From assembly GCA_027925325.1 (NCBI GenBank), contig AP027133.1, positions 180,001 to 212,000 on the forward strand: DNA of 32,000 nt, read 5' to 3'. Below, piece by piece: positions 9,213 to 29,632 of this stretch (positions are counted from its first letter, which is position 1; each line of letters starts with the position of its first letter). Below the pieces are notes generated by a model. It was given only the letters and a program-made list of their open reading frames with translations. It did not search any database and was not told where the DNA came from. This stretch comes from Candidatus Saccharimonadota bacterium. Its GTDB lineage: Bacteria > Bacillota_I > Bacilli_A > Mycoplasmatales > Hepatoplasmataceae. A program made the position numbers and the translations under genes.

Positions 9213-11249
9213 ATGAAAATATTATTAAATGAACTAAAAAAATTTGTTAATTTAGATGGTGTTTCAAATGAAACATTATTTAAATCTTTAAATTCTTTGG
9301 CTTACGAAGTTGAATATTTTCATAAAATTAATAATCTTAAAAATAAATCATTAATAAAATTAGCAAAAGTCCTTAATTGTAAAAAACATCCCAATGCTGA
9401 TCGATTATCTGTTTGCAATATTTTAACAGAAGATAAAGAATATCAAGTTGTTTGTGGAGCAAAAAATATTCAAGAAGGACAGACTGTAGCACATGCCCTT
9501 CCTGGTTCTATTGTTAATAATTTAAAATTGCAACAAAGAAAAATTCGTGGTATTTTATCAAATGGAATGATTCTTTCTTTACAAGAAATTTTAGATTTAA
9601 AAAAAGAAATTGTTGAAACAGAAGAAAAAGAAAATATTTTTGTTTTTGATAATCGAATTTCACTAAAAAATAATTTTTTTGATTTATTAAAGATAAATGA
9701 CTATTTAATTGATATCACAATTTTACCTGATCGTAATTATGCTAATTCTTATCAATTTCTCGCAAGAGAAATTGCTGCTTATTTGAATTTAAAATTTGTT
9801 GATGATGATAAGGATTTACTTTTAAATTTTAATCCGGAAATTAATTTAAAAACAAAATCAGAAGATTTAATTTTAACAGAGGATGCTGTTGCTTTTGCTA
9901 TTAGTAATGTTTTACTAAATAATAAAGGAAAAAATAAAACACCTTTTGAAATTAAACTAGTTCTTTATTTAAATGACATTAAACCACAAAATAACATCTT
10001 AGATTTAATTTTTTATTTTAAATTAATTTATGGATTATCAATTTATCCGATTAAAGAAAAAGATAAGTATTTTTTTGATGGAGAACTTATTAACGATAAA
10101 ATTAATATTTTTGAATCTGATCCCTTTAAAGATTTTGATCAATTTTCTGAAAAATTTAATTTGATTGCTTTTGCTAGTAAAAAGAAAAAAAATATTACTA
10201 TTGAAAAAAATATTAATCATTTTTTTGGCAAGCAAAATGCAAAAGGAACTGAATTTAGTCAAGTTTCTTTACTTGAATTATTTTTAATTTATGCTAAAAA
10301 ATATGACTATTTAAAATCATATTCAAATATTTTAGTAAAGAATTTACAGATGAATGATTATTCAAATCAAATTAAAACAATTTCACTTTCGGAAGATTAT
10401 TTAAAAAATTACGTTGGTGAAAAAATAAATTTAATTAATATTAATGAGAAATTAAAAATATTAGGATTTGATTATATTCAAGATAAACAAATCTGAAAAA
10501 TTCCTAATTATCGTTTTGATATAAATGCAAAACAAGATTTAATTGAGGAAATTATTCGATATTATGGAATTGAAAATATAGCTGGACAAAAATATCCGAT
10601 TGTAAAAGAATTTGTCAAAATTGAAAATAATAAATATTTTATTGAAAAAGTAACAAATTTATTGATTGGATATGGTTTTAATGAGGTTAAAAATACTTCT
10701 TTTATTAATCAAAAAGAATTTGATAAATATAATTTATGAGATATTAAAAATCCGATCTTACTTAGTAAAAGATATTCGATTGCCAATAATATTTTAAGAA
10801 ATTCCTTACTTAAGGGATTATTAAATAATCATAATTTAAATTATAAAAATGATTTTGAGGATATTCGGTTATTCGAGTTTGGTAATATTTATTTTTCAAC
10901 ACAAGAAAATGATTTTAAACTTGCTTTTGGCTTAATTTTTGATGACAAAATTAAATATGAACTAAAAACAGAGGATAAAAATCAACAAAAATCACCACTT
11001 TTGATCGGTGATAAGATTATAAAAGAGGTATTTAAGATTATCGGGCTAAAGACAGATTATAAATATCTTGTTTATAAAGAACTCACGACTAAAACAGATA
11101 TTTTTAATCAAAATCAAGCTGTTGAGGTTTATTATAATGGCGATTTGGTAGCCTATTTTGGTGAATTAAATCACAGCATTTTACGAGCTAATAAATATAT
11201 AAGATTAGATAAAATAAAGGCTCAGTTGTATTATTTAGAAATGATTTAG
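9213..11249 (+). CDS. pheT: phenylalanine--tRNA ligase beta subunit
   Basis: ORFs 9210..10496 and 11001..11249 share a frame and join through TGA codons. There is an N-terminal tRNA-binding domain (KHPNADRLSVCNI...VVCGAKN) and a B5-type segment WKIPNYRFDINAKQDLIEEIIRYYG. Confidence 0.9.
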
Positions 11250-24714: not shown

Positions 24715-25726
24715 ATCAAATGTAATTATTAATAATAAATATAAAATTGTTTCGGAAATTGGAAAGGGAGCTTCTGCTGTTGTCTATCTTGGATATGACT
24801 TACTAAATAATAAAAATGTTGCTTTAAAAATTCAAAATCAAAAAGATGAATTTTCTAATATGGATAAAAGATTTAAATTAGAGGCAAATACTTTGCTTAA
24901 TTTAAATCACCAAAATATCGTCGATACATATGATTACTTTACTTGAAATAATCGTCGTGTGATTGTAATGGAATATTTAGATGGGAAAACACTTGAGAAA
25001 TATATTAGAGAAAAGCAATATCTTTCTTCAAAAGAAGTTGCAACCTTTGCAATTGAAATTTTGGAAGGATTAGATCATGTTCATCAAAATGGAATTATGC
25101 ATCGTGATCTCAAACCAGCTAATATTACGATTACCGTTGATAATAAACTCAAATTAATGGATTTTGGTATTATTCAAACTTCAATTAATCAAGAATTAAC
25201 AAGGCAGGCAAGCATCATTGGAACGATCCAATATTTAGCACCTGAGATATTTAAAGGTGAAAAATCTTCTCCTCCTTCAGAAATGTTTTCAATTGGGGTA
25301 TTACTTTATCGAATGTCAACCGGAGTTTTACCATTTAAGGGAATATCACACGAAGATACAGCGAAGAAAATTTTAAATGATGATCCGTTACCACCAACAA
25401 ATATTAATAAGATGCTTGATTTAGAATTAGAAAAGATAATTTTAAAGTTATTGCAAAAAGATTATTATAATCGTTACCAAACGGCGCGCGAGACGATCAA
25501 TGCTCTTAAGGATTATTTAATAAACCGGGAGCAATATAAAATCAATCAATCAACGAAATTTCTGCAAGATAGGCAAGTTATCGAAAATAATAATCAGACC
25601 TTATCAAAGAGTAAACAAAAAATAAAAAAGAAAAAAGCAAAAGAAATTAAATTAATAAATTATTTGCTTTTTTTTATTGTAATTTTTTTAATATTAGCAC
25701 TTATTATGATTCCTATTTTTATTTAA
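24704..25726 (+). CDS. prkC: Hanks-type Ser/Thr protein kinase, C-terminally membrane-anchored
   Basis: ORFs 24689..24946 and 24959..25726 share a frame and join through TGA at 24944. ATG at 24704 is the likely start. Motifs GKGASAVVY, VALK, HRDLKPAN, DFG and APE are present. A single C-terminal TM segment (LLFFIVIFLILALIMIPIFI) ends at the stop codon. Confidence 0.88.
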
Positions 25727-25798
25727 AATTTTTAAAATATTTTTTAAATTTATCTTAATAATTTATTTTCAAAAAAATTATAATTTTTGTGATAAATT

Positions 25799-26212
25799 AT
25801 GAATAAAAATAGAAAATTAAATTTTAATCTAGAGTATCAGAAATTTTTTAAAACTCCCAATTGGGAGTTAATAGAAATTTTATATTCAAGAAATAAATAT
25901 AGCATTTTAAGAGAAGATCATATAGCAATTAAAATTAATACTAGAAAAAGAAAATTAGAATTTTTACAAATTTATTTATATTTACAAATTGTAAAAAATG
26001 GCAATATTAATCCAATTGAGATTATTGAAGTATATGATAATTTTTCCGATTATATTGATTCGATTTTATCTAAAAATATTGATGAAAAACATAAAAATGA
26101 TTTTGAAATAAAAATAATTAATTTAATTTTATGCTTAAGAAATATTAATACAAAAATTTCTTCTATATTGTATTCTTATATATTTTCATTTGAAAAAACA
26201 TTAATTATTTAA
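25799..26212 (+). CDS. hypothetical protein (137 aa), first ORF of the accessory island
   Basis: The ORF is intact with an ATG start, and TATAAT lies at 25779-25784. I see no recognisable motif. Its 3' end overlaps the open frame of the next ORF. Confidence 0.4.
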   Translation: MNKNRKLNFNLEYQKFFKTPNWELIEILYSRNKYSILREDHIAIKINTRKRKLEFLQIYLYLQIVKNGNINPIEIIEVYDNFSDYIDSILSKNIDEKHKNDFEIKIINLILCLRNINTKISSILYSYIFSFEKTLII

Positions 26213-26889
26213 TAAATCATAAATTTATAAGTAATAATTTAAATATTTTAGAAATTATTTCTCATAATAAAAAGATTGAAATTTCAAAAAATAAAATTAA
26301 AAATTTACAAGAAAAAGATTATATAATTACGGAAAAAAATCTTTTTGTTAAAAATGCAAAAATTATGGAAGAATTATATTTTAAAGAAAAGATATCAATA
26401 TTAAAATATCTGCAAAATGAAAAATTTTTAACTTTACAAGATTTGATAAAAAGAAAATTTATTAGTTCAGGGAAAATAAAGGAAAGAGAAAATTTTTTTA
26501 GAAAAAAAGGTTTTAGTGAAGAGGGAATAAAAAATGGAATATGAAATTATTTTATAGAAAGATTACAAAAAACTAGTGATTTGAGAAATAAAATATCTCA
26601 TCTTGATAATTTAATTATTAAAAAAAATGATTCCGAGGATTTATTAAATTATTTTTATGGTCAGTTCGATCTCTTAAGAAATGATTATACAATAGAAATT
26701 TTTTATAAGATTAAATTAATTTTTTTGAAAAATAATTTAATATCTAGAAATGATATTTTAAGAAATCATTATGAAGATTTCTTTGCTTTTAAAATGAAAA
26801 AGAACAAAAATAATAAAAATGAACAATTCTTAAAAGAAAGAATTGTTCAAGATAAACATACAAATTTGTCTTTAAATTCACACAACTAA
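26149..26889 (+). CDS. HEPN-motif (RNxxxH) protein, Abi-like candidate; start codon unresolved, possibly frameshifted from the upstream ORF
   Basis: Read with code 4, this frame is open from 26149 to TAA at 26887-26889 through two TGA codons. The track shows only 26581..26889. R-N-K-I-S-H lies at 26584-26601, in the context WNYFIERLQKTSDLRNKISHLDNL. The first in-frame ATG is at 26365. The region upstream of that ATG reads like winged-helix segments (LNILEIISHNKKIEISKNKIKNLQEKDYII). Confidence 0.4.
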
Positions 26890-26940
26890 ATGTGCTACAG
26901 TAAAGGATTTATGTTCCTTCACACAACTAAATGTGCTACA
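26877..26940. repeat. perfect 23-nt direct repeat x2 (TTCACACAACTAAATGTGCTACA) separated by an 18-nt unique spacer
   Basis: Copy 1 is 26877-26899 and copy 2 is 26918-26940, identical at 23/23 positions. The spacer GTAAAGGATTTATGTTCC is 26900-26917, giving a 41-nt period. Copy 1 contains the stop codon of the HEPN-motif ORF. Confidence 0.9.
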
Positions 26941-27020
26941 TATCTATTATATATAAATTTTATTTTAAAAATAAAATATTTAAAAAATTAGATAAAATTA
27001 TCATAATTTTACTATTAACT

Positions 27021-27040
27021 TATAATTATTTTAAAAGGAG
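27021..27040 (+). promoter_or_regulatory. candidate -10 box plus strong Shine-Dalgarno for the hidden propeller gene
   Basis: TATAAT is at 27021-27026. AAGGAG is at 27035-27040, 6 nt before ATG at 27047. Confidence 0.4.
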
Positions 27041-27046
27041 AATTAA

Positions 27047-28414
27047 ATGAAGAAATATTATGGAATTTTATTAATTCCACTACTAGGAATAATTCCTATT
27101 AATAAAAATATAATTAACAAAGATAATACTAATTTTGAAGGACAGAATGGTGTAATTATTGATATTTCAGCGCAAGAGACCTGAACAGGAGCAATATTAG
27201 ATTCAGATTTAGATGGATATGGTGATTTTGTTTATATTTGGGGTAATTTTAATTCAGAACCAACAAAATTTGATTTTGCTTGAAATGGCAATTTGATTAA
27301 TTTAGAATTAGGCTCATATTTATCTGCAGGAGTTACGGTTGATATCGATTATGATGGATATGCTGATACTTTATATATGTGAGGAAATAATCAACATGCG
27401 CAATTAGGAAATGGAACTTATGGAAATTATGATTTAAATGATCCAATTAAAATAACTCCCGAAGGACAGGATAATTGAAATGGTAATATTATTGATTTAT
27501 CATTAGGTAGTTATAATACATCAGTTATTATTGATACCGATTATGATGGATATGCCGATACATTTTATTCATGAGGAGATAATATCGGAGGGGAAAATGG
27601 TAATGGTCAAAATGGACTTAATACAGAAGGAGAAGATCAATATGTTTTATATCCTCAAGAAATAGCTCCAGAAGGAAGAGGGGGTTGAAATGGTAATATT
27701 ATCGATCTTGATTTAGACTCAATTACCTCTGCTGCAACTGTTGATGGAAATTATGATGGATATTCCGATACCTTATATATGTGAGGAACCGGTGTTTATA
27801 ATTATTATGGACATGGTCCTGTTTTATATCCAACAAAAATAATCCCAGAAAGAGAAGATGATTGAAGAGGAGATATTGTTGATTTTGATACAGATTATCA
27901 TAATACAGGGGTTGTTGTAGATACAAATTATGATCATATCGGTGATACTCTATATATTTGAGGTTATGCAAGTGAAGGTCAAATTGGGAATGGATATTTT
28001 GAAGATACTAGAGAAAATTTTCCGATTCAAAATACCTTTTTTGTTGATAAAAATATTATAAATCTTGAAATTAAAGATGATGCCCTTGCTGTTTCAACCG
28101 ATGAGAATTTAGATGGTTATGCCGATACCCTTTATATGTGAGGATATAACAATAAAGGTCAACTTGGTGATGAAACAACGATAAGTAAAAGCACACCAAC
28201 AAAAATAATTCCCGATCAAAAAGATAATTGAGGCGGAAACATTATCGATGTATCATTAGGTGGAAGAGATTCAATGGTTTTAACCGATCAAAATAGTGAT
28301 AATTTAGGAGATACAATTTATATGTGGGGTGATAATCAGTTTTATCAATTAGGATTTTTATCAGAAGATGAAATCGTTTCAACTCCCTATCAAATAATTA
28401 CAACAATTTTTTAA
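27047..28414 (+). CDS. secreted 7-blade beta-propeller protein, RCC1-like with a DxDxDG-type loop in every blade (455 aa)
   Basis: No + strand ORF appears in the track because 12 in-frame TGA codons break it. Read with TGA=Trp, the frame is open from ATG at 27047 to TAA at 28412-28414. The N-terminus is MKKYYGILLIPLLGIIP. Seven repeats follow the pattern W.G.IIDL.LG...(D.[DN].D[GHN]..D)TLY.WG.N..GQLGNG. TGA falls at the conserved blade Trp positions. Confidence 0.8.
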
Positions 28415-28560
28415 TATTTTGATAATTTTAAATATATAAGATAAAATTAATTTGTTTGTCTTAAATATTATCTTTATTATTTTATAATACTTACATTGTA
28501 GTTATTTGAATTTAGTTTAAATAATGGATAAATAGATAATAGAATAGAAAGAAGTAAAAA

Positions 28561-28860
28561 ATGAATAAAAAATACAGTCCTTATCTTGGTCCCTTGCAAG
28601 GGACTGAAATTTTAAAAAAGTCACCTTTTGAAGTAGAGGATGATGATGGAAAATATAAAATAATTAAATGCAATTGTGGATCAACTGAATTTAAAAAAAC
28701 AAAAAATTATTATGGTGATAATGAACTTTCTTGTGAATACAATATATATTGTATTAAATGTAATAAAAGAATATGATTTCGTGATGATGATAATACCATC
28801 GGAGGAAAAGAAGATCATAGATTTTTTTATAAAGAAACAGTAGAATATAAGAAAGTTTAA
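28561..28860 (+). CDS. small zinc-ribbon protein (99 aa), hypothetical
   Basis: ORF 28561..28776 continues through TGA at 28774 to TAA at 28858-28860. Cys pairs C-N-C and C-I-K-C lie about 27 aa apart. An AGAAAGAAG purine tract precedes the ATG. Confidence 0.5.
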
Positions 28861-28878
28861 TAAATTTTTTATATCTAG

Positions 28879-28904
28879 AAATTTATTAATTCTTTAATAA
28901 ATTT
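28879..28904 (+). terminator. AT-only hairpin, weak candidate terminator closing the island
   Basis: AAATTTATTAA (28879-28889) and TTAATAAATTT (28894-28904) form a perfect 11-bp inverted repeat with a TTCT loop. T-rich sequence follows. The stem has no G:C pairs. Confidence 0.3.
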
Positions 28905-28986
28905 ATTTCTTTGAATTATTTTATTTAAAAATAAAGAAGAAATTTTTAAGAAATTAAAAATAATTCAAATTTCATTTTTTTTATAA

Positions 28987-28995
28987 TGTTATAAT
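28987..28995 (+). promoter_or_regulatory. extended -10 promoter (TGtTATAAT) for the rpmF operon
   Basis: TG is at 28987-28988 and TATAAT at 28990-28995. It lies about 53 nt upstream of the rpmF ATG, which is preceded by AAAGGAG. Confidence 0.4.
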
Positions 28996-29048
28996 TTATT
29001 GAAAACTTTTATTATTTATTAAGTTATTTTATAAAGGAGTAGTAGATT

Positions 29049-29234
29049 ATGGCGATTCCATTTCGTAGAACATCAAAAACACGTAAAGCTAAAAGACGTA
29101 CACATCAAAAAGCAAAAACTCCCACAATGATTCAATGTTCAAATTGTGGTGCATCAATTAAACCACATACTGTTTGTAAAGAGTGTGGTTATTATAATGG
29201 CAAAAAGATTCTTGATGTTAAAAATAAAAACTAA
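29049..29234 (+). CDS. rpmF: 50S ribosomal protein L32
   Basis: The sequence [19 protein letters not shown]... with CxxC...CxxC is the canonical zinc-ribbon form of L32. Confidence 0.95.
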
Positions 29235-29632
29235 TGAGTACAAAATTTGATCATTTAAATCGAGAACAAAAAATATATTTTATTTATAAACAATTTCTTC
29301 TTGCAAAATCTAAAGATGAGATGATAGAGGATTTACATCAAAATTTTATTGAATATAATTTTTCGGAACAAGAAGAACATGATATTTTAAAAATCATCGA
29401 AGATTTTGATGATTTAAAAGCAAAGGTAGAAAAAGCCCTACCGAGTGATTGAAAATGAACAAGGATTAATAATTTAGAAAAGGCAATTTTAATTTACACT
29501 GTTGCTGAAATAGTTATTTTTAAGCAAAAAAAGGCAATCGCTATCGATAATGCGATTAGATATGCTAAAAAATATTGTGACTTAAAAACTTATCGATTAT
29601 TAAATTTAATTCTTGATAAAGTTGAAATATAA
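29234..29632 (+). CDS. nusB: NusB-like transcription antitermination factor
   Basis: ORF 29234..29452 continues through two TGA codons to TAA at 29630-29632. The C-terminal half (WKWTRINNLEKAILIYTVAEIVIF...AIDNAIRYAKKY...LLNLILDKV) follows the NusB pattern (r....e.aiLr.a.yEl....inEaielak.y....fvNgvLd). Its start overlaps the rpmF stop (TAATG). Confidence 0.6.

What the first reader, a model, noticed from the sequence alone, without database searches (positions are those of the whole stretch)
26877..26940. Perfect 23-nt direct repeat pair with an 18-nt unique spacer straddling the stop codon of the HEPN-motif ORF
TTCACACAACTAAATGTGCTACA occurs twice, 23/23 identical, with a 41-nt period. Copy 1 encodes the last codons and the TAA of the HEPN-motif ORF. 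Copy 2 lies 106 nt upstream of the propeller gene ATG. The sequence after copy 2 does not resemble the spacer, so this is not a simple tandem duplication. Each copy contains a small CACA(N6)TGTG stem. The repeat is relatively G/C-rich for this intergenic context, and I found no other full copy in the window. Several readings are possible. It could be an operator pair about four helical turns apart for the adjacent winged-helix-like/HEPN protein. It could be a processed-RNA module acted on by the HEPN RNase, by analogy with type III toxin-antitoxin repeats or CRISPR-like repeat-spacer-repeat units. It could also be a recombination site.
Basis: seen in the sequence. Interest (0 to 1): 0.65.

Follow-up and report, generated by a model that had tools for sequence, protein, structure and literature searches.

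The report
Conserved 23-nt motif escorting HEPN-motif gene
The perfect 23-base repeat pair is real and is a conserved non-coding signature that accompanies one small, unannotated gene family (with an RNase-like RNxxxH motif) in isopod-gut Hepatoplasma bacteria, most likely as the gene's nucleic-acid partner in a toxin/RNA-antitoxin-like module, although this is unproven.

Summary
In detail: TTCACACAACTAAATGTGCTACA occurs at 26877-26899 and 26918-26940, with no third copy in the window.

The context needed correcting. The genome is a Mollicute that reads TGA as Trp ('Candidatus Hepatoplasma scabrum'). The "HEPN-motif ORF" is the C-terminal half of a 363-codon gene, broken by a 1-nt frameshift in an A6 run (26193-26198).

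That gene belongs to a tiny family. Seven relatives were found among 1.8 billion representative proteins, and every one whose source I could trace is Hepatoplasmataceae or an unnamed AT-rich contig. It shares an invariant RNxISHL motif and matches no Pfam, NCBIfam or PADLOC model.

The key result is that near-identical copies of the 23-mer lie within 400 nt of family genes in two other Hepatoplasma genomes. They differ by 1, 3 and 6 mismatches, sit on the gene's strand, and occupy non-syntenic chromosomal sites. One genome again has a tandem pair, with a 39-nt period. No copy occurs elsewhere in about 200 kb sampled.

So gene and motif form a module. My best reading (about 0.4) is an RNA partner, like the two-motif ncRNA antitoxin of AbiF. 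Membership in Abi_2/abiF was tested and failed, and RNA structure in the window itself is weak. A DNA operator or a cassette boundary remains possible.

The parts
26877..26899 (+). Motif copy 1 (R1), TTCACACAACTAAATGTGCTACA. It contains the TAA stop of the family gene at 26887-26889.
   Evidence: Exact match. Scores 31.6 bits with a PWM trained only on copies from other genomes, against 11.2 for the next best site in the window.
26900..26917 (+). 18-nt spacer GTAAAGGATTTATGTTCC. It can form a small AAGGA/TCCTT hairpin.
   Evidence: It is not conserved in the L007 tandem pair, where the spacer is 16 nt and unrelated in sequence.
26918..26940 (+). Motif copy 2 (R2), identical to R1. It is followed by TATCTATTATATA, which resembles the sequence after the L007 and L008 copies.
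25799..26889 (+). Family gene (363 codons after repair). It carries the invariant R263-N-x-I-S-H268-L motif and is split into ORF137 (25799-26212) and ORF174 (26365-26889).
   Evidence: Code-4 translation and frame-3 continuation. Full-length alignment to P0122-P0127, 47% identity to P0122. Repair by adding one A gives a 1092-nt ORF. Family found by exhaustive phmmer.
26193..26198 (+). A6 run where one A is missing relative to the reading frame of the family. This is the frameshift site.
   Evidence: The assembly is Illumina/SPAdes only (PMC10928387), so a long-read homopolymer error is unlikely.
26820..26849 (+). Perfect 12-bp stem with a 6-nt loop (TGAACAATTCTT-AAAAGA-AAGAATTGTTCA), 27 nt upstream of R1, inside the non-conserved C-terminal tail of the ORF.
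   Evidence: It dominates the z = -3.75 fold of 26810-27050. Relatives also have a hairpin directly after the gene.
25755..25784 (+). Best promoter-like site for the family gene (TTAATA-18-TATAAT), ending 14 nt before the ATG.
   Evidence: Consensus scan only. Promoter-like matches are not enriched over shuffles in this AT-rich region.
25735..28921 (.). Variable island between prkC and rpmF that holds the module, the RCC1 propeller gene (27047-28414) and ORF99 (28561-28860).
   Evidence: The flanks are collinear with H. crinochetorum Ps at about 80% identity. The island is replaced there by an unrelated 246-codon ORF.

Best explanation
The two 23-mers are the window's copies of a family-specific non-coding element that belongs to the adjacent gene. 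Gene plus motif form one inherited module in Hepatoplasmataceae.

Most likely the motif acts at the RNA level. It is transcribed on the gene's strand as part of the 3' (or, in other genomes, 5') untranslated region or a short ncRNA. It presents two equivalent recognition units about 40 nt apart, each with a small CACA/UGUG stem and an A-rich loop. The protein, probably a dimer that forms a composite RNxxxH (HEPN-type) site, binds or cleaves these units. This is analogous to the AbiF toxin held inactive by an ncRNA carrying two abiF motifs 19 nt apart (type III toxin-antitoxin logic).

Shown:
- The repeat is real.
- The gene family exists and the window's copy is frameshifted.
- Motif and gene co-occur across three genomes in non-syntenic sites, always co-oriented.
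- The tandem two-copy layout recurs in a second genome.

Inferred:
- The motif is transcribed.
- It works as RNA.
- The protein is a HEPN RNase.
- The pair neutralises or regulates the protein.

In this window the gene is broken, so the module may be decaying or may depend on slippage at the A-run. The 23/23 identity of the two copies points to a recent local duplication or gene conversion on top of the conserved layout.
For: 1. Cross-genome conservation tied to the gene.
- L007 (H. crinochetorum Tokyo2021) has copies with 1 mismatch (11135-11157, 52 nt after the stop of P0122) and 3 mismatches (9613-9635, upstream).
- L008 (H. vulgare) has a 6-mismatch copy 63 nt upstream of P0123.
- All are on the gene's strand.
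- Chance expectation in 141 kb x 2 strands is 4e-7 for <=1 mismatch and 4.5e-4 for <=3.
- The PWM scan shows a clean gap: true copies score 24.7-36 bits and the best background site scores 14. Nothing lies away from family genes, including near RCC1 genes in L001, L004 and L005.

2. The three Hepatoplasma family genes sit in different chromosomal contexts: after prkC, after rplO, and between cbiQ and truA. The motif therefore travels with the gene, not with a locus.

3. The tandem layout recurs. The L007 downstream copies start at 11096 and 11135 (period 39 nt; 16/23 identical to each other). Both sit inside two-tier hairpins, with a region fold z = -5.08 and flank-shuffle p = 0.001 and 0.054.

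4. More distant family members (L009, L011) have the related TTACCGCAACCTAAATATAGTATA preceded by a GC hairpin with an ATC/GAT to GTC/GAC exchange, immediately after the stop codon.

5. The inner 4-bp stem is kept through double changes. C7-G16 becomes T-A in L007_up and L008_up, and C5-G18 becomes T-A in L007_d1. On alignment A5, 80% of cells are paired against 73.5% in shuffles (1/500), and slid controls reach at most 50%.

6. The motif (22/23 between W and L007) is as conserved as the single best-conserved 23-nt coding stretch of genes that are only 47% identical in protein.

7. The protein has an invariant RNxISHL at about 72% of its length and is all-alpha. The highest TM-score in the listed PDB fold-search matches is PbAbiF bound to ncRNA, although it is not significant.

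8. Published precedent: AbiF/RCd22 has two motifs 19 nt apart, and the ncRNA region is better conserved than the gene (PMC12373285, PMC13064643).
Against: - In the window the repeats fold no better than shuffles (z = -0.74 and -0.46). Their outer stems are no better than shuffled flanks (p = 0.40 and 0.33).
- RNAalifold finds no consensus structure over six modules.
- The upstream copies (L007_up, L008_up) have no outer stem.
- The double substitutions are all GC-to-AT changes. I estimate they would fall on paired positions by chance about one time in three per event.
- No Rfam family matches, including abiF RF03085.
- The protein shows no Abi_2 or other HEPN profile match. HHalign against real Abi family proteins gives probability 0.2%, and Foldseek hits are not significant.
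- In known type III and AbiF systems the RNA lies upstream of the toxin. Here it lies downstream in most loci.
- In L008 the motif lies about 47 nt upstream of the best -10 box, so it needs its own promoter to be transcribed.
- No expression data exist.
- Only 3-5 independent genomes are available.
Confidence: 0.4

Rival explanations
1. DNA operator pair. The 23-mers are binding sites for a DNA-binding (possibly winged-helix) region of the family protein or another regulator. Two sites four helical turns apart allow cooperative binding that autoregulates the module or controls the downstream RCC1 gene.
For: - What is conserved is primary sequence rather than demonstrable RNA structure.
- CACA-N6-TGTG is a classic dimer half-site layout.
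- The 41- and 39-nt periods are close to four helical turns.
- In L008 the motif lies upstream of the gene's likely -10 box.
- A TATTAT -10-like hexamer follows W_R2, L007_d2 and L008_up at +4/+5.
- There is a weak HTH_24 hit in the conserved ILKxLW..L..L region (E = 0.085).
Against: - In five of the seven motif placements the site lies downstream of the family gene. In L007, L009 and L011 it faces a convergent gene, so there is nothing obvious to regulate.
- The best RCC1 promoter candidate (26998-27026) is 57 nt beyond R2.
- No motif occurs upstream of RCC1 homologues elsewhere.
- Three different half-site variants coexist in one genome (L007), which fits base pairing better than one protein's specificity.
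- The HTH hit is below threshold and absent in the other six members.
Confidence: 0.25
2. Boundary or recombination site of a small mobile cassette. The motif marks the ends (att-like or terminal direct repeats) of a gene cassette that inserts at different chromosomal sites. The window pair is a scar or duplicated end.
For: - Family genes occupy non-syntenic positions at synteny breakpoints in every genome.
- In L007 motif copies flank the gene on both sides in direct orientation.
- In L010 the gene and its 3' region are flanked by a 153-nt, 87%-identical direct duplication of the uvrB 3' end, which is a typical insertion signature.
Against: - No recombinase or transposase lies in or near any cassette, and the family protein matches no such family.
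- W and L008 carry the motif on one side only.
- The L010 flanking duplication is uvrB sequence, not the motif.
- The two window copies are only 18 nt apart, so nothing is enclosed between them.
Confidence: 0.15
3. Ordinary 3'-end hairpins (tandem intrinsic terminators or mRNA stabilisers) inherited with the gene. The window's perfect pair is a recent neutral 41-nt slippage duplication with no specific recognition role.
For: - The downstream copies sit right after the stop codon, can form stem-loops and are followed by U-rich sequence.
- The 23/23 identity indicates a recent event.
- The gene next to it is already broken.
Against: - Terminators do not keep a 23-nt apical sequence at 22/23 between genes that are 47% identical while the stems and flanks change.
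- Copies also occur upstream of genes without any hairpin (L007_up, L008_up).
- The consensus terminator scan reports no + strand terminator at the repeats.
- A simple 41-nt tandem duplication would give 82 nt of repeat, not 64.
- The two-copy layout is independently present in L007.
Confidence: 0.12

Closest known systems
AbiF (Abi_2/AbiD-F) HEPN toxin with abiF-motif ncRNA antitoxin, e.g. C. difficile AbiFCd/RCd22 and PbAbiF (PDB 8vz6)
   Same: - A single all-alpha protein of about 300-360 aa with RNxxxH at about 70% of its length.
- A short conserved non-coding element physically linked to the gene and conserved as well as or better than the gene.
- Two motif copies on one strand separated by about 18-19 nt.
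- Location in variable or defence-type genome regions.
   Different: - No Abi_2 Pfam match, and HHalign probability 0.2% against real Abi family proteins.
- No RF03085 match.
- The motif is 23 nt with a 4-bp stem, not a stable 33-37-nt hairpin.
- The element lies mostly downstream of the gene, not upstream with its own terminator.
- Nothing has been tested experimentally.
ToxIN/AbiQ/CptIN/TenpIN type III toxin-antitoxin systems
   Same: Protein gene plus adjacent short direct repeats that would act as RNA.
   Different: - Those repeats are complete head-to-tail units of 34-50 nt (2-5.5 copies) upstream of the toxin and are cut by it. Here only 23 of the 41 nt repeat.
- The toxins there have the ToxN/AbiQ fold, not an RNxxxH helical protein.
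- No ToxN-type Pfam hit.
CRISPR repeat-spacer-repeat unit or Cas13-ancestor-like mini-array
   Same: Two identical direct repeats with a small internal stem, a unique spacer, and a neighbouring protein with a HEPN-type motif.
   Different: - The spacer is only 18 nt.
- I recognised no cas gene among the window's ORFs (no cas-specific search was run).
- The equivalent pair in L007 has diverged to 16/23, which is unlike an array.
- The genome's own CRISPR system is type II-A and is not in this window (PMC10928387).
Autoregulatory operators of type II toxin-antitoxin or HTH-fused defence genes
   Same: Short sites containing a palindrome, in two copies spaced by whole helical turns, next to the regulated module.
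   Different: The sites are mostly downstream of the gene, and there is no supported DNA-binding domain.

Membership tests
AbiF / Abi_2 type III TA | Protein carries the Abi_2 (PF07751) domain or is detectably homologous to Abi family proteins | tested here: not met
   No Pfam hit in the window protein or in six relatives. HHalign of the family alignment A1 against five genuine 'Abi family protein' sequences (A4) gives probability 0.2%, E = 0.29, and the RNxxxH motifs are not aligned. A profile search of PDB sequences does not find 8vz6.
AbiF / Abi_2 type III TA | Associated RNA matches the abiF motif (Rfam RF03085) | tested here: not met
   cmscan with E <= 10 over window 25000-29500, L009 2150-2450 and L010 10900-11460, plus gathering-threshold scans of L007-L011 and the window, gave no RF03085 match.
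AbiF / Abi_2 type III TA | ncRNA encoded upstream of and co-transcribed with the toxin gene | tested here: inconclusive
   Position only. The motif is upstream in L008 and L007, and downstream in the window, L007, L009, L011 and possibly L010. Transcription cannot be tested with these tools.
AbiF / Abi_2 type III TA | Structural similarity of the protein to the AbiF HEPN dimer | tested here: inconclusive
   The AF2 model of P0122 has pLDDT 71 and pTM 0.64. 8vz6_A has the best TM-score in the Foldseek PDB list (0.26/0.30), but E = 2.7 and probability 0.16.
AbiF / Abi_2 type III TA | Protein is toxic and the RNA neutralises it | not testable with these tools
   Needs expression experiments.
HEPN superfamily | Conserved Rx4-6H motif, typically R-N/H/D-xxx-H | tested here: met
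   R263, N264, I266, S267, H268 and L269 are invariant in all 7 family sequences.
HEPN superfamily | Four-helix up-down HEPN fold, recognised by profile or structure comparison | tested here: inconclusive
   The protein is predicted all-alpha, but no significant Pfam, PDB-sequence, Foldseek PDB or BFVD match to any HEPN protein was found.
ToxIN-type type III TA | Array of complete tandem repeat units upstream of a ToxN/AbiQ-fold toxin | tested here: not met
   Only 23 of the 41 nt repeat, and TRF reports no array at 26877-26940. The repeats lie downstream of the gene. There is no ToxN-type Pfam hit.
CRISPR array | Near-identical repeats with similar-sized spacers (usually >= 21 nt) and associated cas genes or leader | tested here: not met
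   There is one 18-nt spacer. The code-4 ORF list of the window reads as housekeeping genes plus the island, and I recognised no cas gene in it, although I ran no cas-specific profile search. The homologous pair in L007 is only 16/23 identical.
Dispersed genomic repeat (REP/MITE-like) | Many copies scattered through the genome, independent of one gene family | tested here: not met
   No further copy in the 32-kb window (<= 3 mismatches) or in about 200 kb of Hepatoplasmataceae loci (PWM). The rest of the H. scabrum genome could not be read.

The most novel reading that the evidence does not exclude
A previously unrecognised protein-RNA module confined to Hepatoplasmataceae. It would consist of a divergent single-HEPN RNase whose cognate RNA is a two-unit repeat encoded after the gene (a 'toxin-first' type III TA). 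Alternatively, it could be a minimal repeat-spacer-repeat RNA analogous to the AbiF-to-Cas13 transition, and it would be mobile between chromosomal hot spots in very small symbiont genomes.
Probability: 0.25. Interest if true: 0.7.

Novelty: new variant of a known kind. Interest (0 to 1): 0.5.

Why it matters
If the motif is the RNA partner of this protein, the pair would be a new branch of HEPN/ncRNA toxin-antitoxin-type systems. These are the class now thought to have given rise to Cas13. It would have a different gene-RNA order, and it would be found in Mollicute symbionts with genomes of about 600 kb that were reported to encode no toxins (PMC10928387). The finding also gives a function-linked handle (gene plus 23-mer) for annotating an orphan family. 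Finally, it corrects the local gene model by applying code 4 and identifying a frameshifted gene. If the motif is only an operator or a cassette scar, it is a modest annotation point.

Tried and rejected
- Exact 23-mer scans of GTDB genomes, JGI metagenomes and IMG/VR found nothing. The source genome is not in those collections, and relatives differ by at least 1 nt.
- Exact-protein look-ups of window L32, window FtsZ and paralogue P0004 found nothing on record.
- The word-indexed homologue search with ORF174 returned only itself. Only the exhaustive phmmer search found the family.
- Family searches in JGI metagenomes, IMG/VR, plasmids and phages found nothing.
- Rfam gave no match.
- Promoter reading was rejected. 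TTCACA as -35 is 12 nt from the TGnTACAnn -10-like part and 21 nt from the TATTAT hexamer, and the -10-like hexamer lacks the final T in most copies (my reading).
- Association with the RCC1 gene was rejected. RCC1 homologues in L001, L004 and L005 are non-syntenic and have no motif.
- Island-flanking duplication of the prkC 3' end or upstream region was rejected. The local alignment score of 42 equals the shuffled mean of 42.8.
- Simple 41-nt tandem duplication was rejected. The sequences following the two copies match at 1 of 18 positions.
- Abi_2 homology was rejected.
- RNAalifold found no consensus structure.
- Outer stems around the window copies are not better than shuffled flanks.
- A single-sequence AF2 model of ORF174 was too poor to use (pLDDT 45).
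- From memory only, the reverse complement of the 23-mer shares TAGCAC and TTGTGT with a Mycoplasma type II-A CRISPR repeat. I could not obtain the Hepatoplasma repeat to test this, so I give it no weight.

Full report
**Observation**

The sequence TTCACACAACTAAATGTGCTACA is present at 26877-26899 and 26918-26940 on the + strand. The two copies are separated by the 18-nt GTAAAGGATTTATGTTCC. No third copy exists in the window at up to 3 mismatches on either strand, and none appeared in 100 shuffles. The spacer is unique. Copy 1 contains the TAA at 26887-26889, and copy 2 ends 106 nt before the ATG at 27047.

**Context, corrected**

- The window has 24.6% G+C, and in-frame TGA codons split its genes, so it is a Mollicute using genetic code 4.
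- Names attached to paralogues of the neighbouring RCC1 gene identify the genome as the 606,194-bp MAG 'Candidatus Hepatoplasma scabrum'. This is AP027133.1, an Illumina/SPAdes assembly from Porcellio scaber (PMC10928387).
- Under code 4 the "HEPN-motif ORF" is 174 codons (26365-26889).
- An exhaustive phmmer search of 1.84 billion representative proteins found seven relatives of 310-502 aa (plus one weak, unrelated long protein). ORF174 aligns to their C-terminal halves.
- The upstream ORF137 (25799-26212) and the frame-3 continuation align to their N-terminal halves. Adding one A to the A6 run at 26193-26198 restores a 363-codon gene that is 47% identical to P0122 over its full length.
- The family shares an invariant R-N-x-I-S-H-L motif and has no Pfam, NCBIfam or PADLOC match.
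- The last ~30 codons of the window gene, including those in copy 1, lie beyond the conserved end of the family. The overlap with the stop codon is therefore incidental.

**The island**

prkC and everything upstream, and rpmF and everything downstream, are collinear at about 80-88% identity with H. crinochetorum Ps (L006). The segment 25735-28921 is replaced there by an unrelated 246-codon ORF. RCC1 homologues in other Hepatoplasma genomes are elsewhere.

**The decisive comparison**

The exact 23-mer is absent from the GTDB, JGI and IMG/VR collections. The loci that encode family members do carry close variants:

- **L007** (H. crinochetorum Tokyo2021, P0122, between rplO and a MIP gene):
  - TTCACACAACTATATGTGCTACA (1 mismatch), 52 nt after the stop codon.
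  - A 7-mismatch copy 39 nt upstream of that one.
  - TTCACATAACTATATATGCTACA (3 mismatches), 365 nt upstream of the gene.
- **L008** (H. vulgare, P0123, inserted between cbiQ and truA): TCCACATACCTACATATGCTTCA, 63 nt upstream of the start.

All copies are on the gene's strand.

The chance expectation in 141 kb x 2 strands is 4e-7 for <=1 mismatch and 4.5e-4 for <=3. A PWM separates true copies (24.7-36 bits) from the best background site (14 bits) in about 200 kb. A PWM trained without the window scores R1 and R2 at 31.6 bits against 11.2 for the next window site.

More distant members (L009 and L011, from Logan assemblies) have TTACCGCAACCTAAATATAGTATA a few dozen nt after the stop. It is preceded by a GC-rich hairpin with one compensatory exchange. 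L010 has a weaker version.

The motif is therefore neither a private accident of this genome nor a dispersed repeat. It travels with this gene family through at least three non-syntenic insertion sites.

**Is it structured RNA?**

Evidence in favour:

- In L007 both downstream copies sit in two-tier hairpins. These have different outer stems, a shared CU bulge, a 4-bp inner stem and an A-rich loop. The region folds with z = -5.08, and flank-shuffle p is 0.001 and 0.054.
- The inner stem is preserved by double changes in three copies. On a six-module alignment, 80% of cells pair against 73.5% in shuffles (1/500), and slid controls reach at most 50%.

Evidence against:

- The window copies fold no better than shuffles.
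- The upstream copies have no outer stem.
- RNAalifold finds no consensus structure.
- The double changes are all GC-to-AT, so they are weak evidence.

What is robustly conserved is the primary sequence and the two-copy, ~40-nt layout. A stable fold is not.

**What the protein is**

An AF2 model of P0122 built with the 7-sequence alignment is all-alpha (pLDDT 71). Foldseek against PDB and BFVD gives nothing significant. The best TM-score in the PDB list is 8vz6, PbAbiF bound to its ncRNA (TM 0.26/0.30, E = 2.7).

I fetched five genuine 'Abi family protein' genes from plasmids and ran HHalign against the family. The probability was 0.2%. Membership in Abi_2 is therefore not supported, and 'HEPN' rests on the RNxxxH motif alone.

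**Mechanism**

The best-supported reading is that the 23-mer pair is the nucleic-acid partner of this protein.

I favour RNA (0.4) for four reasons:

- The copies are always co-oriented with the gene.
- They usually sit directly after its stop codon.
- They show some pairing conservation.
- There is a close published analogue. AbiF toxins are neutralised by an ncRNA, C. difficile RCd22 carries two abiF motifs 19 nt apart, and the non-coding region of AbiD/F genes is better conserved than the genes (PMC12373285, PMC13064643).

The alternatives are:

- **DNA operator pair (0.25).** This fits the sequence-level conservation and the helical-turn spacing. It fits poorly with the sites being downstream of the gene and facing convergent genes.
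- **Cassette boundary or recombination site (0.15).** This fits the non-syntenic positions, the flanking copies in L007 and the 153-nt uvrB duplication around the L010 gene. No recombinase is present.
- **Inherited terminators plus a neutral duplication (0.12).** This does not explain 22/23 identity between genes that are 47% identical, nor the upstream copies.

The perfect identity of the two window copies, compared with 16/23 in L007, indicates a recent local duplication or conversion. Because the adjacent gene is frameshifted, the module here may be decaying or may depend on slippage at the A-run.

**Verdict**

- The association with the gene is real and conserved.
- The mechanism is unproven.
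- It works like, but is not a demonstrable member of, the AbiF/type III toxin-antitoxin kind.
- Interest is moderate (0.5).

Noticed in passing
window 26193-26198: The family gene is broken by a single missing A in an A6 run (GAAAAAAC where the frame needs A7). The assembly is Illumina-only, so this is probably a genuine frameshift. It could be a pseudogene, or it could be rescued by polymerase slippage at poly(A), as described for other AT-rich symbionts.
   Followed up: partly
window 26820-26849: A perfect 12-bp stem with a 6-nt loop lies inside the non-conserved C-terminal tail of the ORF, 27 nt before R1. The terminator scan calls it on the minus strand, although no minus-strand gene ends there.
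   Followed up: partly
window 25735-28921 vs L006 11032-11870: The whole prkC-rpmF interval is a replaceable island. H. crinochetorum Ps has instead an unrelated 246-codon ORF (FxWIRKIEF...) with a 253-codon paralogue at L006 18627-19388. Both are without annotation.
   Followed up: partly
L010 9751-9902 and 11144-11294: In H. vulgare the family gene P0126 and its 3' region are flanked by a 153-nt direct duplication (87% identity) of the 3' end of uvrB. This is an insertion-type signature without any recombinase gene nearby.
   Followed up: partly
L009 2265-2310: Downstream of the motif there is a 21-nt tandem repeat, ATTTGTGCTACTTTTTTTAA / ATTTGTGATACTTTTTTTAA. Its core resembles the 3' half of the 23-mer (AAATGTGCTACA). 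It is absent from the closely related L011.
   Followed up: no
L007 9671-9874 (-); L009 2398-2622 (-); L011 6801-7025 (-): Small, strongly hydrophobic ORFs (67 and 74 codons, 2-3 predicted membrane helices) lie next to family genes on the opposite strand. It is unknown whether they are part of the module.
   Followed up: no
L009, L010, L011: Three of the six family genes whose loci I could read sit next to uvrA or uvrB (between uvrB and uvrA in L009/L011, directly after uvrB in L010). This suggests an old insertion hot spot or a functional link.
   Followed up: no
window 27047-28414: The RCC1-type propeller gene has an N-terminal hydrophobic segment and at least four paralogues in the same genome (P0003, P0004, P0012, P0014). 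Homologues in other Hepatoplasma genomes sit in arrays of ~990-aa versions (L001).
   Followed up: partly
window 28561-28860: ORF99 has CxC and CxxC cysteine pairs (zinc-ribbon-like) and no family match apart from sub-threshold Lar and DpdG hits. It is part of the island and absent from L006.
   Followed up: no
L006 15679-17379: A 566-codon ORF with the IPxFQRxYxW signature (DUF262/GmrSD-like by eye) follows ftsZ and a short 114-codon ORF in H. crinochetorum Ps, so defence-type genes may cluster near this region. I did not run a profile search on it.
   Followed up: no
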